A DNA stretch of 64,000 bases from contig OZ024740.1 of the NCBI GenBank assembly GCA_964016885.1, positions 36,580,001-36,644,000 of the forward strand. The letters are read 5' to 3'. How positions within the stretch are numbered: position 1 is the stretch's first letter; each line of letters opens with the position of its first letter. The translations under genes and the position numbers were made by a program. This document shows, one piece after another, positions 3,669 to 55,049 of this stretch. The notes beneath the pieces are model-generated. The model saw nothing but the letters and a program-made list of their open reading frames with translations. It searched no databases and was not told where the DNA came from. This DNA comes from Eledone cirrhosa. Taxonomy: Eukaryota.

Positions 3669-3983
3669 TTATTATTGTTGTTGTTGTCGTTATTATTATT
3701 ATTGTTATTATTATTAATGTACTGGGTAATTGCTGGCCTTGTGCCAAAAAAATAGAAACAATTATTATTATTATTATTGGTCTAAGCGGACGTATTTTGC
3801 TCGCTCCCAGTAAGTCGCTTTATTTGCCTGTTAAAATTATTTGTTGTTAAATATTTCTAGTTGTGTAAGGGATAAAAGCCCTTAGACTTTGCCCCGTGAA
3901 GGGGAAAGTATAATATTTGCGCCTTTTGGCCCAAATATTTGAACTTTTTTTACATGTTAAAAAATTTAAGAAGAAAAAAAAAC

Positions 3984-5974
3984 ATGGCTGGGCCACGCCC
4001 CCCCCCCCCCCCCAGCAATATGTCGGCTGCCGTGCGACAACGACGTAGAAGTTGAGAGGAGCGCTACAGCGAAATTAACACACATTGATAACACAAACAC
4101 CACCACAAACAAGGTAAACAAAGACATCAATGATACCAATGAGAACTCTAATTTTGAAAAAAATGACAGTAACAGCGACAACGAAAATACAGATAACAAA
4201 AAAAAAAATAACAAATACAACAACAATATCAACACCACTAACATGAAAACAAATAGCGACAACACCAACAGCAATAATACCAACTGCACCGAGAACAACG
4301 GTGGCAACAAAGACAACAATGATAACAGCGACAGTGCTAACAACAACACCGACAAGAACAACGACAACAAAACCCCTAACGAAAACATGAAGAACACTTT
4401 CGCTGCAGCAGCAGCAAAAAAGAGGCCATGCTTCAACATGGACCTCTCAAACAAAGATGAAAAGTTGGCCCAGGCATGGAAGCTCATCAAGCAAGAGCAA
4501 ACTTGGGCCAACTTAACTGTCCCGGTAGAAGCTATTGAGGCAGTGGAGCGCAAAACGGTGCATTATAGATGCATCTCAGCACAAACCAAAAGGGCAACTT
4601 TAATCCCACAAGAAGATATCGAAGTCGCGCTGAGGTGCATCAGAGAAGACACCCAGTACATAGAGAGGGGCAGACAGTACGGCACCATTTCGGTGTTGTT
4701 CAATTCAGAAGCCCTCGCTATGAAACACGTTATGACTCCTTGCAAAACCAGCAAGGTCATAATGTACCCCTCAAACATGGGAAAAAGAACGGTCTGTCTC
4801 TGCATTCCCAGAATCCCACCAGGACTTGACATGTGGTGGCTTCTGGGATGTGTGATTGTGGAGGGGACGGATACAGTCCCTATAGAAGTGACCAGAACGG
4901 CCAGAGAGGACTGATCCGGGGTTGACCTGGAGATCCTTCTCCAGATCAGGTCCGAGAATGTGAAGACAATCCCGGACCACATCCGCCTTCAGAATGGGAC
5001 GGCCATTCACATTATGACCGAAGGCAAAAGGCCGCAGTGTTTTGTTTGTGGGGAAAAAACCCATTTGCGAGCCTTCTGCCCTCAACTGCTGAAAGAGGCA
5101 AGGGGTCGAAAGGCTCCACTGCTGCCGACGCCGCGGCGAGAACCACAACCAACACCAGCACCGGCAAAACCACCAACAACAACACTAATAGAAAGACCAC
5201 CACCAACATTGACCACCCAAGGGGGAAACGAGGAAAGCTGTCAAATTCCTCCTCCCCCCCAAAATACACACACCAATAAAACCATAAACATACATACAGA
5301 CACAACTAACAGACACAGACCCCTCATCTACCAGTAGTGAAAATGAGGGAAATCCAAAATCCCCCAAAATACAAAAAAGGAAACACAAAAAAAAAAAAAA
5401 AATCTCAACAAAGCACAAAAGCACCCACAATAAAAAACGCAGATACCACCCACGCAAACATCTCTCCAATAACACCAACATCAACACCACCATCACCATC
5501 ACCAGAATCCCCCAAACGCAAACAACCGAAACAGACGCAAGAACAAATATACACACAAACATCTGAAACCACAGACACCGCACTCACAACAAACACAGAT
5601 ACAACCGAAACAACACCACCAAAACATCACGACCACAGCCACGCAAACACATAAAATCACACCAACAAAACATACAAAACTTCGTGCTCGTCAGGAGGGC
5701 CAACAAGGAACTGATGGCCCTCGTAGCACGAAGTGAAAATATACAAAAAGAGGGGGAAATTTTTAAATCGAGCACATTTTGTGTGCCGGAAAATTTGGTT
5801 CTGGTGCGAATGTCGCTCGACATATTCAAAGAAATACGAGACAGCTTTCCTCGGGACGTGGGAACCCCGAACGTAAAACCCACTACAAGACTTTTAAAGG
5901 GGTTCCCAAAAGAAACCCCACTAACTATGGAGGTCGAACAACTCGACCTTCACAAGAGCCCGGAAGGTAAGTAA
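3984..5974 (+). pseudogene. Tx1 ORF1 (gag-like, CCHC zinc knuckle), disrupted
   Basis: ATG 3984; frameshifts at poly-C runs (~4000, ~5255); TGA at 4912; knuckle CFVCGEKTHLRAFC; Asn/Thr-rich low-complexity segments. Confidence 0.75.
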
Positions 5975-6007
5975 AGCTTCCTCTCTCTCTCTGTTTAACC
6001 TGCTAAC

Positions 6008-9000
6008 ATGGCCGTATTAAGAGTAGGATGTTTAAATGTTCGAGGCCTGGGATCGTCCTGGAAGCAGGGTCACCTGCTCAACGACCTCAGATCTATAGAA
6101 ATGGATGTAATTGCAGTCAGCGAAACCAGGATTTCCGACACGCGCGCACTAGCCCCCATTTTCGACGACTATCAGATCTTTGCATCTGTTAGCCGGCCGG
6201 GAATGGGAGGCGGGGTGGCAGTGCTGTTTAGGAAAGGCCTGGATCTCGAGGTAAGGTCGATCTTCCGGGACCCGGACGGGAAGTTGGTGGTCCTGGACGG
6301 GAACAATAATGAAGGTGGTGCCTTTAGACTGGTGGACGTCTATGCTCCTACTGGGGCTGGACGGCCGGACCTCTTTAGACGCCTGGAAGCCTTTCTGGGT
6401 ACGTCTCACCCTTTACTGTTAGCGGGGGACTGGAACAGCATCTTAGACGCACGCTGGGACTGAGTGGGAGTATCCGATAGGAGCGCGGGGTGCAAAAGCC
6501 CCAAGAACCCGATCAGCCATTTCCAACTGTCTGACAGGTATCGACTAGATTTACCTAATGCGCCAGTGTGGACCTGGGCTAACCGCATAGAGTCATCTAG
6601 ATCGTATATAGACAGGATATTCATTAGGAAAATAGACAGAAATAGTGTAGGCTGTCCACGTTTTGAAACGGTCGCCTATTCAGATCACAAGTTTGTGATC
6701 TGTATGGTCGACCTAGATAAGACGCGTAGGAGAGGACCTGGTTACTGGAAGCTAAACATGTCATTTCCGGCACGTAAGGCTTACAGGGACCAGGTCAACA
6801 ATTTAGTTAAGAAAAAGTTGACAGGGAGAGTCGTCAACAATAGATGGTGGGGGGCTCTCAAAAGAGAGATTAGAGTAATGTCGATAGAGTTTAGCAAAGA
6901 AGTAGCATTAGAGAAAAATAGAAAGGAGGGGGAGTTGGTAGATAAGTTAGACGAAGCTATTGGTAGTGGCATTGCAACTGACGTGCTAGTGGCGAGAATG
7001 GCATTAGACCATTTCTTCAATGCGAAACACGAAGGTTGGATTGTCAGAGCTAAGGTGCGTGCTCTGAGAAATGAGGGAACCAAAGCTGTTCGATGGGCCC
7101 GCGTGGCAGAGGCGCAGCGTGGAAATAAAACCACGATTCGGTCTTTGACGGACCGAGACGGGCACGAGCTGAGCGATTCCAAGAAGATGTGTGAGGCCTT
7201 TCGCCAACATTTTGCTCGGTTGTTCGGGGGAAGTGGCGGGTCAGAGATGGTGGCGGACTTCAGTCCCTACCTCAATGGCTTGCCGCAACTCTCGACGGCT
7301 TACGGTGGGCGCTGCGAGAGGCCAATTACTTCAGCCGAGATTCAGGATGCCCTTGTCGGCTGCATGAAACGCAAGTCACCCGGTTTGGATGGTCTGCTCT
7401 ACGAGCTTTACGTAAATATGCCAGACTTGTTCTCCAATCTCCTCGAAGCTCTCTACTGCAACTGGCAGCAAAACGGGAGTATTCACAGTTCTGTGAGCCG
7501 GGGCGTAGTGACGCTGATAAGGAAAGACGAGAACAAGAGGGACACATTAGTCAATTTCAGGCCCATAACTCTGCTCAACACAGAGTTTAAGATTTTGGCC
7601 AGGGTGTTAGCGAAGAGGTTGGCGCTTGTCGTTGGGAAGGCACAAACTTGCGCAATCCTAACCAGGTCCATACACGACAACCTCCACCTAATGCGATACA
7701 TCATAGAGAGGGTAGGGTGTAAACCTGGCTTCGGTGGGGCTCTGATCAATTTAGATCAATCGAAAGCATTCGATAGGGTCGACCATCGGTACCTGGAGGC
7801 TGTCCTAAGGGCGGCTGGATTCGGCCCCGTCTTCAGAAGCTGGATCGCTGCAATGCACAGCTGCACCTGCTCGATGGTCAAAATTAATGGCCACCTCTCG
7901 GAACCGTTTCAGGTCTCTCGATCGGTCCGTCAAGGGTGCCCTCTCTCCTCCCTTCTGTACGTATTGACTCTCGAGCCTTTACTGCGGAAGCTGGAGGTGT
8001 TGCAGGGCATCCCGCTCGAACCGGGACGCGGAAAGGCTGTGTCGGCTTATACGGACGACATCACCGTGATGGTGTCGGACACCTCAGAAATCGAGGTGGT
8101 CGGCAACTTATTGGAGGAATATGAAAGGTTGACGGGAGCAAAACTTAACCCGGAAAAGTCAGTGGGCTTGCAACTCGGCACCTGGAGAGGCAAGTCCATG
8201 CCGTCCAACAGCGTCGTTAGGCGCTGGACGGACGGACCGGTAAAGTTGCTGGGGGTTTGGTTCGGGCCAGACCTCCAGGTGGATAAGAATTGGGACGAGG
8301 TGACGGGCAGGGTAGCCAGTCTCACCCAGAAATGGGTTGGGATGAAGCTATCACTGAAAGGTCGGGCGGAGGTGGCGAACGCGTACATCGCGTCCGTCAT
8401 CTACTACCGTCTGACTGTCGTCCCTTGCCCCCGTTCGCGCCTCGCCATCTTGGACCGGCTCCTCTTCAAATTCTTGTGGAGGGGTCAGGTTCCGCTGGTG
8501 AGGCGGTCCATCTGCTGCCAGCACCCTCTACGTGGAGGGCTGGGCATGCCGTGGCTAATGATGCGCAGGCACGCGCTGAGGCTGCGGCATCTCCAGATAT
8601 TCTGCCTAAACGGTGAACAGGTGTGGTTGCCGTTTGTCAGACGGGCCTTTCCGCAGCTCGTTTCTTTGACTGAGTTGCAGTCCTGGGTCAAGAAGAGACC
8701 GAGACTGGGTAACTGGCATCTGGAATGTTGCCAGGCACTCACTGCCCTCTACCAGGCGGGCAATGCGGTCAGTGGAACTTCCACTCTCGAGTTCTATAGA
8801 GGATTAGTGGTGGGCAAGTGCGACGACGCACTCGGAGAGGCTCTGGGAGTCAACGAAGTCAAACTAACCAGTCTGTACCGAAGGACTTTTGAGCCGGGGA
8901 CGATGGATAATTTCCAAAAATCCCTCGCTTGGCAGTGCTACCGGGGGGGGGGGGCACTGCCGGTTCGAGATAAACTCTACAGGCACGGAAGTGCTGTCAG

Positions 9001-9423
9001 ACGGACCTGCCCGAGATGCGCGCAGAGCGCCGAAACCGTTCTGCACGCACACGTCCAGTATCCGTGCATTACTGACTTGTGGAATTATGTTGAACAGCTC
9101 TTGTCGCGTGTAGAACGGATCCGGCTATCGGCCGAGTCCATAGTGAAGATCGACCCGCCGCCTTCTTTTGGCCTAGAAAGGCAGGCAATTTTCCTCTGTC
9201 TGGTGGCAGTAGCGAAAGAGGTTGTATGGTGGACGAGGTTGAAAGGACTGAATACAGACACTTTTCTCTTCGGCCAATCCCTCATCAACTTTTTCAAGTT
9301 TCACTTGGAAAGGAAGGTGGGGGTGGAGAGAGAAGTGCTGCCCCCCATACATTTGCTGAAAGGTGGGAGAATGTGCCGAGAATGGCCCGTGTGAGTGGGC
9401 CTACTCTGGTCATGCGACTGTAG
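6008..9423 (+). pseudogene. Tx1 ORF2: AP endonuclease + reverse transcriptase + C-terminal Cys/His motif
   Basis: LNVRGL, VSET, VYAP, GDWN, SYIDRIF, SDHK (APE); KSPGLDG, FRPITLLN, LDQSKAFDRV, QGCPLS, YTDD (RT); CPRC..ETVLH; in-frame TGA at 6461 and a frameshift near 9341. Confidence 0.92.
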
Positions 9424-9699
9424 GTAGGTAAATTTGAAGAGGAGAGGGGTGCCTTTCCAGGGTTCTCTCGAAGCGTCGGGTCGTACAGGACTGGTTGGGT
9501 ACCTGAGCGAACCCTAGGTGGTCATCCCCCTATAGGGGAATTTTTTCTTGTAATTTTATTGTTACTTTATTGTTACTTTGTTATTGTTACTTTGTTATTG
9601 TTATTCATATTGTTTACTCGATTTTTCTGTAAAACCCCACTGTCCCAGTCTTTTGTATTGTCCCCTATATGTCGGCCCTTGTGGCCAATAAATGAAATC

Positions 9700-9847
9700 A
9701 TTATTATTATTATTATTGTTATTATTATGTCGTTGTTTTTTCTCGTGCAATGGCCATACTCGATAACGAGTGAGCAGCCATCATCATGTACATATATATA
9801 TATGTCTGTCTGTATGTCTGCGTGTATGTATATATATATATATATTA

Positions 9848-10236: not shown

Positions 10237-10268
<32 letters not shown>

Positions 10269-10708
10269 TTTCCATTTATCGTTTGCGGTGCGCCCGGCCG
10301 ACTAACTCACTCGATATGCAAATTAGGCTGCTCAGCCATTAATATGCATAAGGAAAGTATATACTTTCAGACGTTCAAGCATCTGACAGAAAAGTATACG
10401 ATGCTGACGATAGCTAATAAGCTTGAAACTAGTACATCGTTCCTGTGTCAGTGTTGAACAAAAAGTTGACGATTGTTGCCTGAACACTGTACGGCGTAAT
10501 TCGGGCTGTTTGTTGTTTACAAACAAACCGAGCATTATAATAAATGTTCGGTAAACCCATACGTACATATATATATGTGTGCATGTATGTATATATATAT
10601 ACATACTACTGTACGTCTGTATACATATATGTATGTATACGTACATACATATATTTAAGTACCAGCCGTACTAAGAGTGAGAAATGAAATTTCGTTTCAT
10701 TCTTTTCC

Positions 10709-10774
<66 letters not shown>

Positions 10775-10822
10775 GATGTAAAATAATAAAATTATGAAAA
10801 TCAGCTTACTTACTAAAATTTC

Positions 10823-10903
10823 ACTCCAAGTAATTAGTTTCTGTAAGGGAATAAATATGGTGACGGAACGCAATCATAGAGAATCCTTACGTCATCAGGG
10901 AGT
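10823..10903 (-). ncRNA. Type I hammerhead ribozyme (inverted copy, stem III point mutation)
   Basis: Reverse complement of the 11834 motif; CTAATTAC instead of CTAATTAG. Confidence 0.65.
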
Positions 10904-11833
10904 CTATTCTCAGCTAAGTTCCCAGGCAATGCGTGGACACAGGGAACTTATATAAAAATAATTCAGTGGATGGAAAAAAGCGAGCGGGGACTAAATTCCA
11001 GGACATTGAAAAAATTCACTGCCTACTTGGTCAGTGGAAAATTCAAAAGAATCAATTACGTGACACTGAGGTTAATCAGTGAGGAGTGGAGTGCTAATAA
11101 GACAGGAGCCTAACTACTACCATGAACCATAGCAGTAATTTCGGCAAATTTTGCTCAACAAATAATTTGGAGATAATTATAAAGAATTAGTATATCTACC
11201 AAGATATGTATACAGATGCATACCTATGCTAGCAAATATATAGGTTTTGTCTTAGTAACTTTGTGATTCTATGCAAGTGGATGCAGAACAATTATATGAA
11301 AGACGTAAAATAAGAAAATTATGAAATTATTCCCTTACAGAAAATTATGAAATTATGAAATTATTCCCTTACAGAAACTAATTAGTTGGAGTGAAATTTT
11401 AGTAAGTTGATTTTCATAATTTTCTTATTTTACGTCTTTCATATAATTGTTCTGCATCCCCTTGCATAGAACCACAAAGTTACTAAGACTAAACCTATAT
11501 ATTTGCTAGCATAGGTATGCATCTGTATACATATGTTGGTAGATATACTAATTCTTTATAATTATCTCCAAATTATTTGTTGAGCAAAATAGCCGAAATT
11601 ACTGCTATGTTCCATGATAGTAGTTAGGCTCCTGTCTTATTAGCACTCCACTCCTCACTGATTAACCTCAGTGTCACGTGATTGATTCTTTTGAATTTTC
11701 CACTGAACAAGTAGGCAGTGAATTCTTTCAATGTCCTGGAATTTAGTCCCCGCTCGCTTTTTTCCATCCACTGAATTATTTTTATATAAGTTCCCTGTGT
11801 CCACACATTGCCTGGGAACTTACCTGAGAATAG

Positions 11834-11914
11834 ACTCCCTGATGACGTAAGGATTCTCTATGATTGCGTTCCGTAACCATATTTATTCCCTTACAGAAAC
11901 TAATTAGTTGGAGT
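11834..11914 (+). ncRNA. Type I hammerhead ribozyme
   Basis: ACTCC-CTGATGA-(GTAAGG..CCTTAC)-GAAA-CTAATTAG-TT-GGAGT; GUU cleavage triplet, palindromic stem III. Confidence 0.8.
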
Positions 11915-12477
11915 GAAATTTTAGTAAGTAAGTTGATTTTCATAATTTTCTTATTTTACGTCATTCATATAATTGTTCTGCATCCCCTTGCATAGAACCA
12001 CAAAGTTACTAAGACAAAATCTATATATTTGCTAGCATAGGTATGCATCTGTATACATATGTTGGTAGATATACTAATTCTTTATATATATATATATACA
12101 ATATATTAATACATGGAAACTATATTTATAAAACCATATTTATTTTATTATATATATTTCAAGGGCAACCAAGGCAAATTATGGTGCGCTTTCATCAGAT
12201 AAAATACAGATTTGTTTCATAAATAAATATTGAGATACCCGGAAAAAAGACAACCTTAACGCTTGGAGCTTCCTGGATAGTGGAGATAATATTTTATTGA
12301 GGGTAATACAAAGTTATGAGTGAGTATGCAAATGAGTGTCCGAAAAGTTGAAAAGATAACGGTTTATTTAAATTAAACTGTTGGAAGAGGATGATATGTA
12401 AGGGATAAAAATGTATGTAAGGGATAAGTTATAACATTTTTAAGCTTGTTGAATCCCAACAAATTAAATATAACCTC

Positions 12478-14943: not shown

Positions 14944-15089
14944 GTGTATAGTGATCCATACAAGGACCATGACTCGAGCTACATGCCGGCGAAACATTTG
15001 TAACACGAAATAAACTAAGTCCAGATGCATCACTGATTTTTCGTTTCCTTTATAATTTCTATCTATCTATCTATATATATATATATATA

Positions 15090-18022
15090 TGGTTTGGTAC
15101 ATCTGAAGTAATTGGCTGGTTCAACAACCTGAATAAGAAACACAAACAAAAATGTATTCAATTTGATATTGCCAGCTACTATTCTTCTATTTCGCCTTCA
15201 CTTCTCAACAATGCTCTATCTTTCGCATTTAAATATTCTGACATCACCACATATGAACTTCACATCATTCTCACCGCAAGAAAAACCATCTTAGAATTCA
15301 ACAATGAACACTGGACTAGAGCCGATACGTCCAACAACTTTGATATCACAATGGATGCTTCCGATTCATCGCAATTGACTGACTTGATTGGTATTTTTAT
15401 TTTGAATTCTTTAAATCGGAAAATTCCTCAACTTCGCGGTGGAATTTATCGTGACGATGGACTTTTTACTATCTTAAATTGCAACTTAGTTAACCTTAAT
15501 ATTATTAAGAACAATATACATGATCTCTTTAAGCAACATAACCTTAAAATTGAATTTTATAACAACGTCATACTAGCTAACTTCTTGGATATATCCCTTA
15601 ATCTTGACACTGGCCTATATTACCCTTACCATAAAAACAATGAGAATCTAAATTATGTTCATTTTAAATCTAACCACCCCACTAACATTAAAAATGCTAT
15701 AGTCAGTAATATTGGAAAAAGAATATCAAACCTATCCTGTAATAAAAATATCTTCGATGCTAACGCCAATTACTATAATAATGCGCTTTCTAAAGCCGGT
15801 TATCCTGATAAAATTAAATACAGTAAAGAAACCAATCCTAGGGGGTCTTACAGTAAAATAATAAATTATGATCATTCCAATAACTTAAATAAAAGACCTA
15901 GATACAAAACTATAATATAATGCTCCTTTCTCTATTTCTATTAATAATAATATTCCTAAACTATTCTTTAGGGCCTTAGATAAATGCTTCCCTCCCTCAC
16001 ATATCTATAGTAAAATCTTTAACAAACATACAATAAAATTTTCTTATTCCACCTCTTCCAACATCTCTAACATTATCTCTAAACACAACAATAAAATATT
16101 AAATATTAAATCCCATCCTTCCAACACTGAGCGTCATAATAATAGCAATAGTACTCCCGACGTCATTGTTAACTCTAGGCTAGATTCTGTAAACTCAAAT
16201 ACGACGTCAAACGTAACTTCGTTGAATGTTCATAATACCAATCTAAATCAGGAAACTATTATTCCTATCGTAAATAACTTCTCCAATCCAATTCCTCCTA
16301 TAAATAACACTAGGTCACTTGTTAATAACTCTGTTAATTTCTCTAATCGTAATTGTAATTGCCCTGTTAGAACTAAATGTCCTCTCAATAACCATTGTCT
16401 TGATAAAAACTTAGTCTATGAATGTAAGGTTATAACTGATACCAATTCCTTTACCTATTTCGGTTCCACTTCCACCTCCTTCAAAGCTAGATTTTATAAT
16501 CACAATTCGTCTTTTAAATACCAACTTAAAAGAACTAACACGGCACTCTCAGAACTCATATGGTCCTTGAAAGACAATAATATTAACTATAACATCTCTT
16601 GGAGAAAAGTTTGTTCTGCCTCTCCCTACTTGAATGCCTCCCTATCCAGAACATGTAATCTTTGCCTAGCTGAGAAAATTACCATTATATATAATTTCAA
16701 TTCTATTATAAATAGATTTATTTTCTCTCTGCCTGCATAAATTCCACAGAACATTCCATAAAGTATACAGCTAATATCTAATACCTTACTAGTTTAAAAT
16801 CCTTTTTCTCAAACGCTTATATATCTTTTAAAAATATACTCATCTTTCTACCTTATTTCAATATTATTTATCATATATTATATAATACAAGTTACTCATT
16901 CTATATCATTCCTCTTTATCACTTTCCTTTCTTCCTCTTTTCTTTTTAATTTCTAACCACTAATCTGTACTTTTTCTTCCTAACTACTTCTCAATTCTTA
17001 TTATTGCTCACCACAACATTATCCATTCTTCCATCTTTCCTCATATCATTGGCCATAAAAATTATTATTATTTTAATACATTATAGTATTACCTTTAATA
17101 GTCCTTCGTAAACATAAACATTTCTTTTTACGTTAGATTTTTCTTCCTTAAATTTCTTTCATGCTCGTTTGACTTTTACATATTACAATACATAAAAACA
17201 AACTTAAACCCTAACTAATTTCTTTTAATATATTATATTATTACCATTAGAAAATATTTCGTAAACATATATATTTTTTGATGTTAGATATTTTCTTCCT
17301 TAAACATTCTTTTCTTCTTTGCCTTCTGCGTTCATTTTTAACAAGATATTTACGTACACATATTACGCACACATATTACATTACATAAAAACAAATTTAA
17401 ACCCTAACTAATTCCTCTAAATTCATAACTCATTCATTCTGCTCCTTCTTTTCACATTATATCCTTAATAACATTAATATTTTTATTTTAATAATACATA
17501 TTAATAATTTCTTTTCCTTGCACATATTATTAAACCCTTCAATATACAAACCTTATTTTAATATTATTCTTAATTCCTTTTTCTCTCCATGCATAAACAT
17601 CATTAACTTTTAACTTCAAATTCTTTTAAAGTATCTATTAACTTCCAACGGCTTTTTAACTTCTCTCTGTGAGACAATATTTTTTTTTCTCAGTTGTAAA
17701 GGCTATCTCTCTCTCTATCACCCATCTCTCCTCCTCTCTCATCCTTCCTTCTTATACTCCCCCCCCCCACCATTCTTTACTATCATCTCCTCCTCTTCCT
17801 CCCTTTTCCAACCCACCTCACTTTTTCCCAATCTCATACATCAATCTTAAATTATTTTTCATATGTTGATTTAAAACTTCACTATTCACAACTGTTTCTT
17901 AAGCTTCATATCATGTATCCCTATTTTATCTGATGGGAACGCAGATATCATCCCATGATGATATTTGTTTTTGAAATGCGCATAATAAAATACTTCGAAC
18001 TCTTTTAACCATCTTTTGATCT

Positions 18023-18030
<8 letters not shown>
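15090..18030 (+). mobile_element. 5'-truncated Penelope-like element (Neptune-like): RT + Cys-rich linker + GIY-YIG endonuclease, long AT-rich 3' region
   Basis: Open frame 15090-15920 (QFDIASYY, IYRDDG, FLDI, SNHP); frameshift to 15916-16740 (CNC..CPL..C, NLVY..TYFG, FKARFYNH, CNLC); flanked by (TA)n. Confidence 0.88.
17922..17992 (+). ncRNA. Hammerhead ribozyme in PLE 3' pseudo-LTR (A9G variant)
   Basis: TATTTTAT-CTGATGG-stem II-GAAA-TGCGCA-TA-ATAAAATA; perfect 8 bp stem I. Confidence 0.7.
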
Positions 18031-19777: not shown

Positions 19778-19829
19778 ATAACAACAACAACAGCAACAAG
19801 AGCAGCAACAACAACAACAAGAGCAGCAA

Positions 19830-19860
<31 letters not shown>

Positions 19861-20250
19861 AACAGCAGCAACAACAATAACAGCAACAGCGACGACAACA
19901 ACAACAACAACAACAACAACAACAGCAAAAACAACAGCAACAACAACAACAACAACAAGAACAGCAACAAAAACAACACCAACACCAGCAACAACAACAA
20001 CAACAGCAACAACAACAACAACAGCAGCAACGACAACAACAACAACAGCAACAACCACAACAACAACAGCAACAACAGCAACAAGTACAGCAACAATAAC
20101 AATAACAACAACAAAAACAACAACAACAGCAACACCAACAACAACAACCACATACAACAACAACAGCAACAACAACAGCAACAACAGCAACAACAAAAGC
20201 AACAACAACAACAACAACAACAACAGCAACAACAGCAACAACAAAAGCAA

Positions 20251-20291
<41 letters not shown>

Positions 20292-20319
20292 GCAACACCA
20301 ACAGCAACAACAACAACAA

Positions 20320-20350
<31 letters not shown>

Positions 20351-20621
20351 AACAACAACCACACCAAGAGCAACAGCAACAGCAACAACAACAACAACAA
20401 CAACAGCAACAACCACAACAACAACAGCAACAACAGCAACAAGTACAGCAACAATAACAACAACAACAACACCAACAACAACAACCACATACAACAACAA
20501 CAGCAACAACAACAGCAACAACAGCAACAACAAAAGCAACAACAACAACAACCACAACAACAACAACAACAACAACAACAAAAGCAACAACAAAAGCAAC
20601 AACAAAAGCAACAACAACAGC

Positions 20622-20655
<34 letters not shown>

Positions 20656-20821
20656 CCAACAGCAACAACAACAACAATAACAACACCAACAGCAACAACA
20701 ACAACAATAACAACAACAGCAACAACAGCAACAACAGAAACAACAGCAACAACAACAACAACAACAGCAGCAGCAGCAACAACAACAACAACCACACCAA
20801 GAGCAACAGCAACAGCAACAA

Positions 20822-20852
<31 letters not shown>

Positions 20853-21364
20853 AATAACACCACCACCACCAACAACAACAACAACAACAACAGCAACAAT
20901 AACAACAGCAACACCACCAACAACAACAACAACAGCAGCAATAGCAACAACAACAATAACAACAACAACAACAACAGCAACATCACCAACAACAATAACA
21001 ACAACAACAACAATAACAACACCAACACCAACAACAACAACTGCAACAACCATAACAATAACAACACCAACAACAACAACAGCAGCAATAGCACAACAAC
21101 AATAACAACAACAACAACAACAGCAACACCACCAACAACAATAACAACAACAACAACATGGATGTAACGATCTTTATCTATAATTCCCTGTGTCGTCTTC
21201 ATACGGGGTCGATAAAATAAAGTACCAGTAATACACTGCGCTTGTGGCAAAAGTAGAAACGATTATTACCAAGTAGTATTGGTGGAAAACAAGAGAAACA
21301 TATTACAACAGGAATAACAACAGTAGCAGCAGTAGTATGGTGGTGGTAGTAGTGGTGGTAGTAT

Positions 21365-21449
<85 letters not shown>

Positions 21450-21482
21450 GGTGGTAGTAGTCGTGGTAGTGGTGGTGGTAGC

Positions 21483-21535
<53 letters not shown>

Positions 21536-21599
21536 CAGTAGTGGTGGTGGTAGTAGTAGTGGCAGTAGTAGTAATAGTAGTAGTAGTCGTAGTAGTGGC

Positions 21600-21654
<55 letters not shown>

Positions 21655-21663
21655 CTAGTGGCA

Positions 21664-21699
<36 letters not shown>

Positions 21700-22609
21700 G
21701 TAGTGGTGGTGATGGTAGTAGCAGCAACAACAGCAACAAAGGCAACAACAACAACAGCAACAACAACAACAACACCAACAACAGCAACAACAACAGCCAC
21801 AACAACAACAACAAAAATAGCAGCAACAACAGCAACAACAACAACAACAACAACAGCACCAATAACAACAACAGCAACAGCAACAACGGCAACAACAACA
21901 GCAACAAAAACAACAACAACAATAGCAACAACAACAACAACAACAGCAACAACAACAACAACAGCAGCAGCAACACCAACAACAACAAGAGCAACACCAA
22001 CAACAACAGCAACTACAGCAGGAACAGCAACCACACCAAGAGCAACAGCAACAGCAACAACAACAATAACAACACCAACAACAGCAACAAGAACAACACC
22101 AACAACAACAACAACAACAGCAACAACAGCAACAACACCAACAGCAACAACACCAACACCAGCACCAACAACAACAACAATAGCAACAACAACAACCACA
22201 ACAAATGCAACACCAACAAAAACAACAACAACAACAACAGCAGCAGCAGCAGCAACAACAGCAACAGCAACAGCAACAACAACAGCAGCAATAGCAACAA
22301 CAACAATAACAACAACAACAACAACAATAACAACAACAACAACAGCAACACCACCAACAACAATAACAACAACAACAACATGGATGTAACGATCTTTATC
22401 TATAATTCCCTGTGTCGTCTTCATACGGGGTCGATAAAATAAAGTACCAGTAATACACTGCGCTTGTGGCAAAAGTAGAAACGATTATTACCAAGTAGTA
22501 TTGGTGGAAAACAAGAGAAACATATTACAACAGGAATAACAACAGTAGCAGCAGTAGTATGGTGGTGGTAGTAGTGGTGATAGTATTAGTAGTAGTAGTA
22601 GTAGTAGTA

Positions 22610-22662
<53 letters not shown>

Positions 22663-22683
22663 CGTGGTAGTGGTGGTGGTAGC

Positions 22684-22736
<53 letters not shown>

Positions 22737-22839
22737 CAGTAGTGGTGGTGGTAGTAGTAGTGGCAGTAGTAGTAATAGTAGTAGTAGTCGTAGTAGTGGC
22801 AGTAGTAGTAGTAGTAGTAGTAGTATGGTGGTGGTAGTA

Positions 22840-22888
<49 letters not shown>

Positions 22889-22902
22889 CAGTAGCAGTAG
22901 CG

Positions 22903-22951
<49 letters not shown>

Positions 22952-22959
22952 CTGTAGCG

Positions 22960-23011
<52 letters not shown>

Positions 23012-23028
23012 CAGCAGCAGTAGTAGTG

Positions 23029-23094
<66 letters not shown>

Positions 23095-23103
23095 CCTGTA
23101 GCG

Positions 23104-23143
<40 letters not shown>

Positions 23144-23153
23144 CAGCAGCAGC

Positions 23154-23200
<47 letters not shown>

Positions 23201-23229
23201 CAGCAGTAGTAGTGGTGGTGGTAGTAGTG

Positions 23230-23266
<37 letters not shown>

Positions 23267-23301
23267 CAGTAGTGGTGGTGGTAGTAGTAGTAGTAGCAGA
23301 G

Positions 23302-23375
<74 letters not shown>

Positions 23376-23421
23376 TATAGTAGCAGTAGTAGTAGCAGTG
23401 GTAGTAGTAGTAGTAGTGGCG

Positions 23422-23464
<43 letters not shown>

Positions 23465-23502
23465 CAGTAGCAGCAGCAGTAGTGGTGGTGGTGGTAGTAG
23501 TG

Positions 23503-23554
<52 letters not shown>

Positions 23555-23589
23555 CAGTAGTGGTGGTGGTAGTAGTAGTAGTAGCAGAG

Positions 23590-23647
<58 letters not shown>

Positions 23648-26090
23648 CAGTAGTAGTAGCAGTAGTATCTGTTGTAGTAGTAGTAGTAGTAGCTGCAGTA
23701 GTGTTAGCAACAAGCTACACCAACAGCGACGTCAAAGATGACAGACTGTGATGGATGAGGTGGTGGCGGGGTGGTGGTGTACTTGTAGTGATGATGGTGG
23801 TGGTGATAGTGATGGTGGTGATAGTGATGGTGGTGGTAGTGATGGTGGTGGTGTTGTTATTGGTGTTGTTGGTAGTGATGATGTTGTTGATAGTGGTGGT
23901 GGTAGTGATGGTAGTGATGATTGTGTTGATGGTGTTTTGTGGGTGGTGACGGTGGTGGTAGTGATGATGGTGTTGATGGTGGTGGTGGTGGTAGTGGTAG
24001 TGTTGATGGTGTTGATGGTGGTGGTGGTGGAGTGATTATGGTGTTGATGGTGGTGGTGGTGGTAGTGGTAGTGTTGATGGTGTTGATGGTGGTGGTGGTG
24101 TAGTGATGATGATGTTCATGGTGCTGTTGGTGGTAGTGATGATGGTGTTGATGGTGGTGGTTGTGGTAGTGGTAGTGTTGATGGTGTTGATGGTGTTGAT
24201 GGTGGTGGTGGTGGTGGTAGTGTTGATGGTGGTGGTGGTGGTGGTGATGGTGTTGATGGTGGTGGTGGTGGTGCTGATGGTGTTGATGGTGGTGGTGGTG
24301 GTAGTGATGATGGAGGTGGTTGTGGTAGTGGTAGTGATGATGGTGTTGATGGTGTTGATGGTGGTGTTGGTGGTAGTGTTGATGGTGGTGGTGGTGGTGG
24401 TGATGGTGGTAGTGATGATGTTGTTGATGGCGGTGGAGGTTGTACTGATGATGGAGTTGATGGTGGTGGTGGTGGTGGTGATGATGGTGGTGATGGTGGT
24501 GGTGGACGTAGTGATGATGGTGTTGATGGTGGTGGTGGTGGTAGTGATGATGGTGGTGGTGGTGGTGGTGGAGGTAGTGATGATGGTGTTGATGGTGGTG
24601 GTGGTGGTGGTAGTGTTGATGGTGTTGATGGCTGAGGTGGTGGTAGTGATAATGGAGTTGATGGTGGTGGTGTTGGTAGTAGTATTGATGGTGTTGATGG
24701 TAGTGGTGGTGGTGGTGGTAGTGACGATGGCGTTGATGGTGGTGGTGGTAGTGATGATGGTTTTGATGGTGGTATTGATGATGGTGTTGATGGTGTGGTG
24801 GTGGTGGTAGTGATGATGACGTTGAAGGTGTGGTGGTGGTGGTAGTGATGATGGTGTTGATGGTGGTGGTGGTCGTGGTAGTGATGTTGGTGTCGATGGT
24901 TGTGGTGATGGTGGTAGTGGTGATGGTGTTGATGTTAATGGTGGTGGTGGTAGTGAAGATGGTGTTGATGGTGGTGGTGGTGGTGGTAGTGTTGATGGTG
25001 TTGATGGTGGTGATGGTAGTGGTCGTGGTGGTAGTGATGATGGTGTTGATGGTCTGGTGGTGGTATTGATGATGTTTTTCATGGTGGTGGTAGTGTTGAT
25101 GGTGTTGATGGTGGTGGTGGTAGTAGTGTTGATGGTGATGATGGTGGTGCTGGTGGTAGTGTTGATGGTGTAGATGGAGGTGGTGGTAGTGATGATGATG
25201 TTGATGGTGGTGGTGGTGGAAGTGTTGATGTCGTTGATGGTGGTGGTGGTGGTGGTGGTAGTGTTGATGGTGTGGATGGTGCTGGTAGTGATGATGGTGT
25301 TGATGGTGGTGGTGATGGTAGTGTTGATGGTGTTGATGATGGTGGTGGTGGTAGTAATGATGGTGTTGATGGTGGTGGTGGTGGTGGCGGTGGTGGTGGT
25401 AGTGTTGATTGTGTTGATGGTGTTGGTGGTGGTGGTGATGGTGGTGCTGATGGTGTTGATGGTGATGGTGGTGATATTGTTCATAGTGTTGATGGTGTTG
25501 ATGGTAGTGATGATGGTGTTGATGGTGGTGGTGATGGTAGTGTTGATGGTGTTGATGGTAGTGGTGGTGGTAGTAATGATGGTGTTGATGGTGGTAGTGG
25601 TGGTGGTGGTATTGTTGATGGTGTTGATCGTGGTGGTGGTGGTAGTGATGATGGTGTTGATGGTTGGAGGTGGAGGTAGTGATGATGGTGTTGATGGTGG
25701 TGATGGTGGTGGTGGTAGTGATGATGGTGGTGATGGTGGTACTGATGATGGTGGTGCTGTTCGTGGTGGTGGTGGTGATGGTTTTGATGGTGGTGGTGGT
25801 GGTGGAAGTGTTGATGGTGTTGATAGTGGTGGTGGTGGTAATGATGATGGTGTTGATGGTGATGGTGGCAGTGATGATGGTGTTGATGGTGTTGGTGGTG
25901 GTAGTGTTGATGGTGTTGATGGTGGTGATGGTAGTGATGATGGTGTTGATGGTGGTGGTGGTGGTAGTTATGATGGTGTTAATGCTAGTGGTGGTGGTAG
26001 TGATGATGGGGTGATGGTGGTGGTTGTGGTAGTAGTGTTGATGGTGGTGGTGGTGGTGGTGGTGGTGGTGGTGGTGGTGGTGGTAGTCGG
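19778..26090. repeat. Compound trinucleotide field: (AAC/AGC)n, (GTA)n, (GGT/GAT)n
   Basis: Seen directly; includes a ~1222 bp tandem duplication carrying a SINE fragment. Confidence 0.95.
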
Positions 26091-28749
26091 TTAGCAGCGA
26101 GAAGTGGCGCTCCTTTCGTCGGACTGAACAGTGATGTCAGTGGCTTGTGGTCAGTTACGAGTATAAACTAATGTCCGTACAGATACTGATAGAACTTCTG
26201 CAAGCCAAATATGATGGCCAGAGCTTCCTTTAGAATTTGACCGTAGTTACGCTGTGCAGAAGTAAGAGTCTTGGACACATTGGATATTGGGCGCTCGCTT
26301 CCATCAAGATAGCGATGAAACAGGACTGCTCCAATTCCAACGTTTGACGCGTCGCAAGCCAGTCCCAAAGTTTTGTTTGGATCTAAGTGTATCAGAACTC
26401 GATCCGATGAAAGCACATTTTTCAACTGATCGAAAGCTGACTGTTCTTCATCTCCCCACTTCCAAGTAGTCGTTTTTTTCGTAAGGCAATAGAGTGGCTC
26501 TGCCATGCTGGCCAGGTTTGGGATAAACTTTCCATAGAACTGAACTGAACCCAGGAAAGACTTCAAGCTTGAGACGTTCGTTGGAGGTGGCATCTTTAAA
26601 ACTGCTTCGACCTTGGATCCCTTCGCGATCCCTTCAGCCGACAAGGTGTGTCCAAGGTATTCCACACTGGGTAGTACACACTGGCACTTGTCACGGCGAC
26701 ATCTGAGTCTTTTGTCGCACAGACGTGTGAGCAGACACTTTAGGTTGTTCAGGTGATCGTTTGCATCTTTCCCACTGACGAGCATGTCGTCCTGGAAGAC
26801 AGCCACACCAGGTAGATCTTGAGTCAGGTTTTCCATGATCTCCTGAAAGTAACCAGGTGCTGACTTGATTCCGGTGAGTGCTGAGTGCAGGCTTGCGTTG
26901 ACTTTCTGGAGCCAGCTTGATCTGATTATAGGCATCAGCAAGATCAATCTTTGTGTATCCGAATCCACCTCCGAGCTTCTGGATCAGTTCCTCTGGGAGT
27001 AGCATTGGATGACGATGATCTGCAAGTTGGTCATTAATTCCCACAGAGTAGTCACCACAAATCCGTAGTTTGGGCTTCAGGTTGCCTGAAGTATGTGCTT
27101 TACGAATCGGTACCACTGGCGTTCCGTATTTGTTGAACTGTACTGGCTTCCAGATTCCTTTGGCGATGCCTTCTTCGTAACCTTTGGCCAGGTCATCACG
27201 AAGAGCAAACGGGACCGGGCGTGCCTTGCGAAAGACCGGTGTCGCGTCCGACTTGAACTCCACTTCCAGTTCGAAGTCATTAAGACATCCCAATTCTTGC
27301 TTGAAGAGATCTGGGAATTCATCACACATGTTGTGACAATCTCGTTGCATGGAAATATAGGGCTCATTTGACGTCTTTGGATGCAGCACTTCTGCACCCT
27401 AACTCTTGGCCTGGCTGTCTATGCTTTTCAATCCTAGAGCATTGTCCACGGAAATTCCCAGAGTCTGGATAGCGTTTCGTCCCAGCAAATTAAGATCAGG
27501 GATCTTGGTGACGATGTAGGGTATTGAATTCCGTTTACCGGTCGTTGGATCCTTGGTTTGGCCCATGAAATTTCCCAGAACGGGCAGGTCGTGCTTGCTG
27601 GCAGATTCAAACCGATGTTTGACATCTTGCAGCTTCGGTTTTCCTAATTGTTTCCAAACTGACAAGGAAACAAAATTGCCTGTAGTAGCTGTGTCCAATT
27701 CCATTGTGAAAAGTCTGTTCTGGATTGTTATTGGCACATTCAAACTATGAGTATCGTGGGGAACTTCACCAAGGATCGCCTTGACTAGCTCAGCTTTCGT
27801 GATTCTTTTCACGTAATTCTGTGAGCGATGATTACGTTGCTGATGTTGTTTTCTACACACCGCTTGCAAATGTCCCTTTTTGTCACAAAAATGACATTTG
27901 GCTTCTTTGAAGGGGCAGTCTGTCGCTTTGTGGGCCTTTCCACATCGATAGCACATCTCCTGGTCTGTGGAATAAGACTGCTGATGGTTCTTTCGAGGAC
28001 CCTTGTTCTTGTTCTGCTGGACCTTGTAAACTTGCTTGGTTTTGGAACCGTAAACAGTTTCCTTGCCAACCTTTGCTGCGTCTTCGGTCCCGATGGCAAC
28101 TTGGACAGCACGGGCGAAATCTAGTTCTGTATCCTTGAACTTGAAAATAGCCTTCAACACAGCTTTATTATTGACAGAACATATAAATCTCTGTCTTAGA
28201 GCTTCATCTTGTGGGTTTGTGATCGAAGGAAAATCACAGGTAGCTGCATCCTGACGTATACGTGCTGCCAGCTCCTGGAGAGTTTTGCCTGGCTTCCGTT
28301 GCATGTCACTCCAGAACTTGAAACGTTCTCTCACAATGAAAAGTTTTGGGTCGAACTGTTCTTTCATGAAGTCAACAATTTCGTCCATTGTCAACTTGTT
28401 GATATCCTTAGGCGGATTTAGTTGAGCAGCCAGATTTGCAAGTTGTTTGTAGATAGCAGCCGTCTGATTAGTCAGGAACACTTGTGCCATGCGTTGCTCG
28501 GGTACAGCGTTAGCAGCCACAAACGTGCAGAATCTTGACCAGTAATCGGGCCATAGTTCTGTTGTTGAATCAAAAGCAGCAAATGGTGGGATAAATGCTG
28601 TTGGTGTCGAAGCAACTGGCGACGCCAATAAACTCTGTTGTTCAGAATCTCGAGCACCAAACAGTTTTATCAGAGTGTCCATATCTTTCTTGCGTTGTTG
28701 CATTTGTTGTTCCTGTTGTTGCGCCATGTTTTTATGATAAACAATTTCC

Positions 28750-28859
28750 CGGCAATGTAGCTAAATCCTATCGGCAATGCAGGTAAATCCTATCGGCAAT
28801 GTAGGTAAATCCTATCGGCAATGTAGGTAAATCCTACGGGCAATGTAGGTAAATCATAT
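28750..28859. repeat. 5 x 22 bp tandem repeat in the Gypsy leader
   Basis: Unit CGGCAATGTAGGTAAATCCTAT. Confidence 0.9.
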
Positions 28860-28878
28860 CGTCGACGCCAATAAACTC

Positions 28879-43787: not shown

Positions 43788-43820
<33 letters not shown>

Positions 43821-43824
<4 letters not shown>

Positions 43825-45203: not shown

Positions 45204-45406
45204 TATATATATATATATAGGAAAAAGTATGAACCCGACGGCAGAGCTCAAGCCGTTTCGATGGCTATTTCCGTCCAGAAATAGCCGTCAAAACGGCTTG
45301 AGCTCTGCCGTCGGGGTCATACTTTTTCCTATTTCCCACTCTACTACCCTAAGTATTGAGTACTCTGGTGCGTTATGGTCCATCTGGTTCCTTACCACAA
45401 TTCCTT

Positions 45407-52588: not shown

Positions 52589-54984
52589 TTAAAAAGACAG
52601 CGGCCTGCCTACTACTATAGCAGCAGTCATGGCCAATATTGCTCGACAAATGAATTGGAGATAATTATAAAGAATTTATATCTAGTAACATTTATATACA
52701 TACAGATGCATATCAATGCTAGCAAATATATAGGTTTTGTCTTAGTAAGATTGTGGTTCAATGCATGGGGTTGCAGAACAATAATATGAGAGACGTAAGA
52801 TGAGAAAATTATAAAATTATAAAAAAAATTATAAAATTGGCTTACTTACTAAAATATCACTTCTGCTATAGTAGTAGGCAGGCCGCTGTCTTTTTAACAA
52901 CTCGCTTTCCACTGATTGAACTCGATGTCACGTGATTGATTCTTTTTGAATTTGCCACGGACGTAGAGACAGTGATTTTCTCAATGGCTAGGATTTCAGT
53001 CCACGCTTCGCTATTTCCTCTCAACTGAATTATTTTTTTTAATAAGTTTCCAGAGTCCTCGCTATGCCTGGAAACTTACATGAAAAGAGACTTTCCTGAC
53101 GACGGAATGCTTTTCAATATGTTCTTCGGAAAATATATTTACTCCATTCCAGAAACTAATTAGTTGGAAGTGATATTTTAGTAAGTAAGCCAATTTCATA
53201 ATTTTTTTATAATTTTATAATTTTCTTATCTTACATCTCTCATATTATTGTTCTGCAACCCCATGCATTGAACCACAACGTTACTAAGACAAAACCTATA
53301 TATTTGCTAGCATTGATATGCATCTGTATGTATATAAATGTTACTAGATATAAATTCTTTATAATTATCTCCAATTCATTTGTCGAGCAATATTGGCCAT
53401 GACTGCTGCTATAGTAGTAGGCAGGCCGCTGTCTTTTTAACAACTCGCTTTCCACTGATTGACCTCGATGTCACGTGATTGATTCTTTTTGAATTTGCCA
53501 CGAAAGTAGAGACAGTGATTATCTCAATGGCTAGGATTTCAGTCCACGCTTCGCTATTTCCTCTCCACTGAATTATTTTTTTAATAAGTTTCCAGAGTCT
53601 TCGCTATGCCTGGAAACTTACATGAAAAGAGACTTTCCTGGCGACGGAATGCTTTTCCATATGTTCTTCGGAAAATATATTTACTCCATTCCAGAAACTA
53701 ATTAGTTGGAAGTGATATTTTAGTAAGAAAGCCAATTTTATAATTTTTTTATAATTTTATAATTTTCTTATCTTACGTCTCTCATATTATTGTTCTGCAA
53801 CCCCATGCATTGAACCACAATGTTACTAAGACAAAACCTATATATTTGCTAGCATTGATATGCATCTGTATGTATATAAATGTTACTAGATATAAATTCT
53901 TTATAATTATCTCCAATTCATTTGTCGAGAAATATTGGCCATGACTGCTGCTATAGTAGAAAGGCAGGCCGCTGTCTTTTTAACAACTCGCTTTCCACTG
54001 ATTGACCTCGATGTCACGTGATTGATTCTTTTTGAATTTGCCACGGACGTAGAGACAGTGATTTTCTCAATGGCTAGGATTTCAGTCCACGCTTCGCTAT
54101 TTCCTCTCCACTGAATTATTTTTTTAATAAGTTTCCAGAGTCCTCGCTATGCCTGGAAACTTACATGAAAAGAGGCTTTCCTGACGACGGAATGCTTTTC
54201 AATATGTTTCTTCGGAAAATATATTTACTCCATTCCAGAAACTAATTAGTTGGAAGTGATATTTTAGTAAGTAAGCCAATTTTATAATTTTTTTATAATT
54301 TTATAATTTTCTTATCTTACGTCTCTCATATTATTGTTCTGCAACCCCATGCATTGAACCACAATGTTACTAAGACAAAACCTATATATTTGCTAGCATT
54401 GATATGCATCTGTATGTATATAAATGTTACTAGATATAAATTCTTTATAATTATCTCCAATTCATTTGTCGAGCAATATTGGCCATGAGTGCTGCTATAG
54501 TAGTAGGCAGGCCGCTGTCTTTTTAACAACTCGCTTTCCACTGATTGACCTCGATGTCACGTGATTGATTCTTTTTGAATTTGCCACGAAAGTAGAGACA
54601 GTGATTTTCTCAATGGCTAGGATTTCAGTCCACGCTTCGCTATTTCCTCTCAACTGAATTCTTTTTTTAATAAGTTTCCAGAGTCCTCGCTATGCCTGGA
54701 AACTTACACGAAAAGAGACTTTCCTGACGACGGAATGCTTTTCAATATGTTCTTCGGAAAATATATTTACTCCATTCCAGAAACTAATTAGTTGGAAGTG
54801 ATATTTTAGTAAGTAAGCCAATTTTATAATTTTTTTATAATTTTATAATTATCTTATCCTACGTCTCTCATATTATTGTTCTGCAACCCCATGCATTGAA
54901 CCACAATGTTACTAAGACAAAACCTATATATTTGCTAGCATTGATATGCATCTGTATGTATATAAATGTTACTAGATATAAATT

Positions 54985-54990
<6 letters not shown>
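52589..54990 (+). mobile_element. Retrozyme-like tandem array, family B: ~3.9 x 543 bp units with 4 hammerheads and a ~275 bp 5' inversion
   Basis: Hammerheads at 53090-53171, 53632-53713, 54175-54257, 54718-54799; ends at AATTCTTTATA into (TA)n. Confidence 0.88.
53090..53171 (+). ncRNA. Type I hammerhead (copy 1 of 4)
   Basis: ACTTTC-CTGACGA-C-GGAATG..CATTCC-A-GAAA-CTAATTAG-TT-GGAAGT. Confidence 0.82.

Positions 54991-55049
<59 letters not shown>

What the first reader, a model, noticed from the sequence alone, without database searches (positions are those of the whole stretch)
10771..12085. Diverged sister family (~525 nt) shows compensatory base pairs and the same insertion endpoint
Seen: this unit aligns along its length with the 543-bp unit but is clearly diverged, and the helices covary. 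Stem II is GTAAGG/CCTTAC versus GGAATG/CATTCC; stem I is ACTCC/GGAGT versus ACTTTC/GGAAGT; an upstream hairpin is TAAGTTCCC/GGGAACTTA versus TAAGTTTCC/GGAAACTTA. Both insertions end at the homologous AATTCTTTATA and run into (TA)n, and the inverted arm here also stops at an internal ATATA. Inference: selection on RNA structure, and target priming by annealing of nicked (TA)n to internal UA-rich sites of the RNA.
Basis: partly seen in the sequence, partly recalled or inferred. Interest (0 to 1): 0.75.

Follow-up and report, generated by a model that had tools for sequence, protein, structure and literature searches.

The report
Two-ended Penelope-mobilised hammerhead retrozyme
This is one of thousands of copies of a 526-base non-coding repeat carrying a predicted self-cutting RNA; its two mirror-image arms almost always end at two different fixed points, likely because a Hydra-type Penelope jumping-gene enzyme starts copying the RNA at one point for each side of a break in TA-repeat DNA.

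Summary
The 526-nt unit is 75% identical to the 543-nt unit, and both carry a type I hammerhead that Rfam misses. Stems II and I covary across subfamilies; the upstream-hairpin example is weak. It is a non-LTR retrozyme (non-autonomous Penelope-like element), with over 11,000 exact ribozyme motifs genome-wide. (1) 103 of 104 TA-flanked 3' ends fall at two sites 115-118 nt apart, and 73 of 76 two-armed insertions with both ends assigned use one site per end. This is the Penelope 'tail', three times the published length. Longer UA runs are skipped, so annealing alone does not pick the sites. (2) A bulged hairpin just after site 1 is shared with autonomous Hydra-clade elements here and in coral and sea cucumber. 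(3) A covarying upstream strand, as conserved as the catalytic core, is predicted to lock the ribozyme off, which most animal retrozymes reportedly lack. Cleavage, expression and circles are untested. The scan already reported two-armed retrozymes, fixed end sites and the Hydra link on other DNA of this genome; one search found no note on the blocker helix.

The parts
10766..11326 (-). Inverted arm, 561 nt (unit 378-526 then 1-411); its RNA-sense 3' end is at site 1 and runs into (TA)n at 10712-10770
   Evidence: 21 differences in 561 columns from the direct unit
10828..10903 (-). Hammerhead of the inverted arm (core starts at 10898); one G-to-C change in the stem III palindrome
11327..11360 (.). 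Centre junction: 34 nt of stuttered pieces of both arm ends joined at GAAA microhomology
   Evidence: a templated insertion typical of microhomology-mediated end joining (inference from general knowledge)
11361..11560 (+). 5'-truncated partial unit (unit 323-526) of the direct arm
   Evidence: 96.6% identical to 11883-12086
11561..12086 (+). Full 526-nt unit (family A); 3' end at site 2, followed by (TA)n
   Evidence: fold z -6.6
11649..11664 (+). [quoted passage not shown]
11787..11822 (+). Upstream hairpin (weak covariation); overlaps a TATA-like TATATAAG at 11783-11790 (promoter role not tested)
11834..11914 (+). Type I hammerhead: stem I 11834-11838/11910-11914, CTGATGA 11839-11845, C.A mismatch then stem II 11847-11852/11889-11894 with a 36-nt structured loop, GAAA 11896-11899, palindromic stem III 11898-11909, predicted cut after GUU at 11909
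   Evidence: (0 of 5000 shuffles of the unit give such a motif)
11967..11971 (+). Site 1 (ATATA, unit 407-411): first fixed 3' end
11975..11998 (+). Bulged hairpin GTTC-TGCA-loop-TGCA-TA-GAAC, likely protein-recognition signal shared with Hydra-clade elements
12020..12073 (+). Long hairpin in the 115-nt tail between the two sites
12083..12086 (+). Site 2 (TATA, unit 523-526): second fixed 3' end
52589..54991 (+). Sister family B insertion: 275-nt inverted arm plus about 3.9 tandem units
14973..18030 (+). Broken copy of an abundant Hydra-type Penelope element (candidate partner clade), with hammerhead and site-1 end
   Evidence: clade read by eye against the alignment

Best explanation
This is a protein-less, hammerhead-bearing repeat (a non-LTR retrozyme) whose insertions end at two fixed sites, one per end, and it is likely copied by a Hydra-clade Penelope reverse transcriptase/endonuclease that primes from both sides of a cut in (TA)n. 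Shown: unit anatomy, copy number, two end sites, one-per-end pairing, covariation, the shared hairpin, and microhomology or stuttered inserts at the centre. Inferred: the protein binds the bulged hairpin; one DNA 3' end starts cDNA at site 1 and the other at site 2, helped by 4-5 nt of UA pairing. The two cDNAs run towards each other on a multimeric or circular RNA (arms are usually longer than the 177 nt from cut site to site 2) and are joined by microhomology-mediated repair, which gives the palindrome. Predicted: the hammerhead cuts after GUU, probably as a dimer through its 12-nt palindrome, and the upstream blocker strand holds it off in the finished monomer or circle.
For: Hammerhead core and stems. 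9,077 and 2,486 exact stem III motifs, reversed-pattern controls 0. 103 of 104 TA-flanked 3' ends at two sites. 97 two-armed insertions: 73 site 1/site 2, 0 site 1/site 1, 3 site 2/site 2, 21 with an unassigned end. Samples anchored on one junction: 0 versus 22, and 15 versus 1, p = 1e-9. Families E and F and the autonomous Hydra family also have two end sites. The bulged hairpin is found in A, B, F, one E copy and the Hydra family, in none of C, D or two Neptune-like ends, and in 18 and 10 of 5000 shuffles; it is visible by eye in Hydra-2_Amil and Hydra-2_Ajap. Opposite arms differ as little as tandem units in one arm (3.4% vs 3.6% in A; 1.8% vs 1.9% in B), under half the between-insertion value. 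Literature: PMC11167929 maps the tail to two RT start sites; PMC8557442 describes the inverted 5' copy, one-ended tail and (TA)n bias; PMC7229834 and the 2026 preprint propose Penelope mobilisation.
Against: No autonomous element with sequence similarity to unit A or B was found next to an ORF (50 GIY-YIG loci and 30 Hydra loci checked; the hits were separate insertions), so the partner rests on a structural motif. The hammerhead is non-standard (C.A at the base of stem II, GUU triplet, long loop II), and Rfam gives no hammerhead hit even at E 10. In PMC11167929 initiation did not need homology or ribozyme cleavage. 17 of 40 and 16 of 39 anchored insertions show no inverted arm. Eighteen of 30 shared private variants occur within one arm only, many in some units but not all, which does not fit copying of a single circle alone; there is no A-to-G excess. 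The blocker is not above chance in families E and F (640 and 693 of 1000) and is not the dominant pairing in one intermediate-subfamily copy (P about 0.3).
Confidence: 0.8

Rival explanations
1. Pure annealing: nicked (TA)n pairs with any UA-rich stretch of the RNA, and the two sites are simply the accessible ones; no specific protein signal is needed.
For: Both sites carry TATA/ATATA in four families; a few ends fall at other T/A runs with TA flanks (L173 at 225, L227 at 394); the longest UA run lies inside a predicted hairpin.
Against: Independent choice would give about half same-site pairs; 3 of 76 were seen. A conserved hairpin abuts site 1. PMC11167929 found protein-directed initiation without homology.
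Confidence: 0.1
2. The two ends are cut, not primed: a fold-back (self-primed) cDNA palindrome is resolved by the endonuclease at staggered AT sites and then joined into (TA)n.
For: PMC8557442 suggests that the tail results from endonuclease resolution; PMC3846280 proposes self-priming. Both sites in A read TATA-ATT, and the anole enzyme prefers ATT (PMC11167929). Several junctions have both arms starting at the same position.
Against: Most centre junctions join unrelated unit positions with 0-7 nt overlap or short inserts. RT start sites matched the genomic ends in vitro (PMC11167929).
Confidence: 0.15
3. The ribozyme is a relic and the element moves as uncut tandem transcripts; the conserved RNA folds serve protein binding only and no circle forms.
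For: Non-standard core; ribozyme mutants did not affect insertion in PMC11167929; 8 of 9 Xenopus elements did not cleave (2026 preprint); the active fold costs 6-9 kcal/mol in A and B.
Against: The core is strongly conserved; stems I and II covary; 17 of 88 arm 5' ends within 100 nt of the cut site lie at -3 to +16 (p = 0.006 for that window, 0.13 as a scan).
Confidence: 0.25
4. A DNA-level repeat (foldback DNA transposon or satellite) with a chance hammerhead.
For: Long inverted arms and TA flanks.
Against: Arms have unequal fixed ends and variable 5' truncations; 0 of 5000 shuffles give the motif; covariation.
Confidence: 0.02

Closest known systems
Metazoan non-LTR retrozymes (PMC7229834, parts 2-4 of 6 read; bioRxiv 10.64898/2026.07.22.740005, parts 1-3 of 5 read)
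   Same: ORF-less tandem unit with a type I hammerhead, GC below 50%, dispersed monomers and short multimers, co-occurs with Penelope elements; a weak base of stem II as in axolotl HHR_Amex2.
   Different: Unit 526-543 nt, above the 170-400 nt of the 2020 paper but inside the 51-972 bp of the preprint. Long loop II. Two-armed insertions with fixed ends are not described in the parts read. The ribozyme is predicted to be blocked by self-pairing, which PMC7229834 says most metazoan retrozymes lack (some mussel ones excepted).
Penelope-like elements, Hydra clade (PMC8557442, passages and supplement hits; PMC3846280 and PMC4209133, passages)
   Same: Inverted 5'-truncated copy, tail at one end only, (TA)n targets (Hydra-1_Obim), palindromic stem III, an extra base after A9, shared bulged hairpin after site 1.
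   Different: No ORF; tail 115-118 nt versus 30-40 bp; no sequence-level parent found.
Poseidon PAc of the green anole (PMC11167929, parts 1-2 of 4 read)
   Same: Two internal RT start sites downstream of the hammerhead that define the tail; both target strands extended; predicted dimer.
   Different: Start sites there lack homology to the target; here both carry 4-5 nt of UA and are used one per end.
L1 twin priming (PMC2837659, search listing only; mechanism recalled)
   Same: Two primers and an inverted 5' segment joined by microhomology.
   Different: The L1 second site is variable and the segments do not overlap; here both sites are fixed and the arms are homologous.
Plant LTR retrozymes and hammerhead viroids (as described in PMC7229834)
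   Same: Ribozyme predicted to be blocked by a complementary strand.
   Different: Type III hammerheads, LTR/PBS/PPT or no DNA phase.

Membership tests
Non-LTR retrozyme | Type I hammerhead motif in each repeat unit | tested here: met
   non-standard, not scored by Rfam
Non-LTR retrozyme | Tandem units of a few hundred nt without an ORF | tested here: met
   no ORF of 130 aa or more over the element
Non-LTR retrozyme | At least two consecutive complete hammerheads at this locus (preprint's 'active' test) | tested here: not met
   The direct arm holds one full motif plus its 3' half; the B locus and other A loci meet it
Non-LTR retrozyme | Self-cleavage | not testable with these tools
   prediction only
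Non-LTR retrozyme | Expression as linear and circular RNA | not testable with these tools
   no RNA holder listed
Non-autonomous Penelope-like element | 5' truncation with an adjacent inverted copy | tested here: met
   97 two-armed insertions; 46 of 79 anchored insertions
Non-autonomous Penelope-like element | Tail present at one end only | tested here: met
   73 of 76; length 115-118 nt rather than 30-40
Non-autonomous Penelope-like element | (TA)n target bias | tested here: met
   104 of 120 arm ends have TA-rich flanks
Non-autonomous Penelope-like element | Sequence homology to the pLTR of an autonomous element | tested here: inconclusive
   None in 80 loci of many thousands; structural motif shared with Hydra
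Autonomous Penelope-like element | RT plus GIY-YIG ORF | tested here: not met
Plant-type LTR retrozyme | Type III hammerhead in LTRs with PBS/PPT | tested here: not met
   type I topology and tandem units

The most novel reading that the evidence does not exclude
A circular RNA parasite with a built-in, covariation-supported ribozyme lock (viroid-like, atypical for animal retrozymes) is copied by a Hydra-clade enzyme dimer whose two active sites are each assigned to one of two fixed start points 115 nt apart. The bulged hairpin is the clade-wide RNA recognition signal, conserved from corals to cephalopods.
Probability: 0.35. Interest if true: 0.75.

Novelty: new variant of a known kind. Interest (0 to 1): 0.5.

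Why it matters
How Penelope elements make their tandem/inverted insertions and one-ended tail is stated as open in PMC8557442, and PMC7229834 leaves the retrozyme's mobilising enzyme as a candidate. Here thousands of small insertions give a quantitative rule (one fixed site per end), a short RNA motif that names the likely partner clade, and a predicted on/off helix. Each can be tested with the published in vitro assay. The class itself is known, and the scan has met it many times in this genome.

Tried and rejected
Rfam: no hammerhead among the rows shown, only microsatellite-driven miRNA hits. Expression: no RNA holder listed; contigs of two runs of unknown kind from one sample hold the family but show no ends or strand. 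Parent search: no element with an ORF joined to an A/B-like end in 50 GIY-YIG loci and 30 Hydra loci; only the top 150 of 10,597 and 56,604 candidates were scored. Pfam does not recognise the four Penelope-like frames in the window. RNA-editing scars: no A-to-G excess among 30 shared private variants. Single-circle copying cannot be told from a tandem transcript in families this old. 5' ends at the cut site: suggestive only. Blocker in families E and F: chance level. Target-site duplications cannot be read in (TA)n. The Fisher table was miscounted; one search holds the corrected one. R-scape was not available. Supplements of the bioRxiv preprint were closed, and those of PMC7229834 and PMC11167929 were not opened; they may show inverted arms or blocked folds.

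Full report
Anatomy. The element spans window 10766-12086 between (TA)n tracts. It has an inverted arm of 561 nt, a 34-nt stuttered centre junction and a direct arm of 726 nt, built from a 526-nt unit. Unit positions below count from 11561. Both arms point outward in the sense of the RNA that carries the hammerhead. The left flank is the TA tail of another hammerhead repeat, family D. The unit folds far better than shuffles (z -6.6; B z -4.7) and is 75% identical to the 543-nt family B unit. The genome is 3.0 Gb in 1,796 contigs; an octopus-like animal is inferred from repeat content, not shown.

Ribozyme. The + strand has a type I hammerhead: stem I, CTGATGA, a C.A mismatch, a 6-bp stem II with a 36-nt loop, GAAA, the palindrome AACTAATTAGTT and a GUU cut site after 349. 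None of 5000 shuffles of the unit gives such a motif. Rfam does not score it. The palindrome forms a 12-bp self-duplex at -10.8 kcal/mol, which fits the dimeric mode described in PMC4209133 (passages). Exact stem III motifs number 9,077 (A type) and 2,486 (B and intermediate types), with reversed-pattern controls at 0.

Covariation. Thirty-seven distinct full units cluster into A, B, an intermediate group and four singletons; 13 copies were aligned. Stem II has two pairs changed on both sides, one with three types, and stem I has one. The score is 0.127 against 0.059 in shuffles (0 of 500), with the caveat that relatedness inflates this. The upstream-hairpin pair is unpaired in 8 of 13 copies, so that example is weak. 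In 50 family A insertions chosen by junction, variation is 2.1% in the core, 2.4% in the site-1 hairpin, 2.0% in the blocker, 5.5% elsewhere, 6.8% in stems I and II, and 12.6% in loop II.

Junctions. In loci found by similarity, 104 of 120 arm 3' ends have TA-rich flanks, and 103 of these lie at A411/B424 (site 1) or A526/B542 (site 2). Genome-wide there are 3,061 and 1,261 exact junction matches for two patterns of unequal strictness. Of 97 two-armed insertions, 73 pair site 1 with site 2, none pairs site 1 with site 1, 3 pair site 2 with site 2, and 21 have an unassigned end, some through alignment artefacts (L022 and L025 may be one duplicated event). To limit ascertainment bias I took the first 40 site-1 junctions in genome order: 23 have an inverted arm, and 22 of these end at site 2, 0 at site 1 and 1 elsewhere. 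For site 2 I took 39 regions covering 41 of the first 56 matches. The 15 left out were the window itself and 14 that lie beside a divergent site-1 match, so leaving them out is conservative. Twenty-three regions have an inverted arm: 15 end at site 1, 2 probably do, 1 ends at site 2 and 5 elsewhere (p = 1e-9). One further locus, L250, was picked out of order because it looked homotypic; it is counted only. Longer UA runs in the unit are skipped. Families E and F show the same two sites about 106-108 nt apart, the autonomous Hydra family about 93 nt apart and a Neptune-like element about 60 nt apart.

Partner. No sequence parent was found in 80 loci with Penelope ORFs. An earlier scan note suggested a signal shared with Hydra elements, and I tested it. 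A hairpin with a 4-bp lower stem, a TA or TT bulge on the 3' side and an upper stem follows site 1 in A, B, F, one E copy and the window's Hydra-type family. It is absent from C, D and two Neptune-like ends, and occurs in 18 and 10 of 5000 shuffles. The same shape is visible by eye at the 3' ends of Hydra-2_Amil and Hydra-2_Ajap in the supplement of PMC8557442; three other Hydra 3' ends shown there do not show it, and two of them end at a TA run that may be site 1. The clade call for the window ORF rests on motif matches to the alignment.

Blocker. Unit 89-104 is predicted to pair with 341-355 in A and B (pair probabilities mostly 0.8-0.97 in A and 0.4-0.99 in B), burying stem III, the cut site and stem I. 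The helix is 98.9% paired across 13 copies, with two pairs changed on both sides that track the stem I change. It beats shuffles in A (3 of 1000) and B (14 of 1000) but not in E or F, and one intermediate copy prefers another partner. PMC7229834 (part 4) says most metazoan retrozyme circles leave the ribozyme free, unlike plant retrozymes and viroids.

Template. Opposite arms differ as little as tandem neighbours and less than half as much as separate insertions. Twelve private variants are shared across arms, against 367 single ones; 18 more are shared within one arm only, and there is no A-to-G excess. Both arms therefore come from one source lineage, but a circle is not distinguished from a tandem transcript or later conversion. 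Arm 5' ends are mildly enriched just after the cut site (17 of 88; p 0.006 a priori, 0.13 as a scan). No RNA data were available.

Mechanism and comparison. PMC11167929 (parts 1-2) shows that a Penelope enzyme extends both target strands and starts at two internal RNA sites that define the tail. PMC8557442 and PMC3846280 (passages) describe the inverted copy, a tail of 30-40 bp at one end, and (TA)n bias. The element works like a non-autonomous Penelope element and meets the sequence tests for a non-LTR retrozyme; cleavage and circles are untested. It differs in its 115-nt tail, its UA microhomology at both sites, a near-strict one-site-per-end rule and the blocker. Searches that found no paper on this family: (open-access library only). 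The scan has reported two-armed retrozymes and the Hydra link elsewhere in this genome; a search by this sequence and one for a blocker helix found nothing. Verdict: real, a new variant of a known kind, interest 0.5.

Noticed in passing
window 10267-10715: Family D: about 445-nt unit with a minimal hammerhead at 10404; the family A insertion sits in its TA tail, as in L024. Elements nest in each other's (TA)n ends.
   Followed up: partly
window 43812-45210 (relatives at 42980-43220 and 49280-49566): Family C: two-armed hammerhead repeat of period about 659 nt whose arms end at two sites about 100 nt apart; no Hydra-type hairpin found.
   Followed up: partly
window 14973-18030: Broken Hydra-type Penelope element of a very large family (56,604 first-look candidates), with a long-stem-II hammerhead near 17930.
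   Followed up: partly
window 46644-48905: Two Penelope-like ORF fragments on opposite strands; the + strand one is followed by a pLTR with a hammerhead-like motif at 48709.
   Followed up: partly
L093:6500-7400 and L151; L141-L170: Families E (457-467 nt) and F (483 nt) share the site-1 hairpin and the two-site ends with A and B; the motif pattern has 1,230 matches.
   Followed up: yes
L106: Autonomous Neptune-like element as two inverted arms ending at two sites about 60 nt apart.
   Followed up: partly
L174, L175, L181, L183, L185, L191, L196, L019: A subfamily whose site-2 end runs into (CT)n before (TA)n, suggesting slippage on a UCUCUC variant.
   Followed up: no
window 45230-45330: About 110-nt near-perfect palindrome within a dispersed repeat that also appears in flanks (L260, L271).
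   Followed up: no
window 3970-9700; 26168-28760; 1068-2852: Tx1-like LINE with a 976-aa RT frame; a Gypsy-like element on the minus strand; another LINE fragment. Labels are from recall; only listed.
   Followed up: no
window 19780-35460: Very long trinucleotide-type arrays (AAC, AGT, GGT variants) on both strands.
   Followed up: no
L044:230 and L208:1846: Two more hammerhead families with the bulged hairpin in a GCTC/GAGC form.
   Followed up: no
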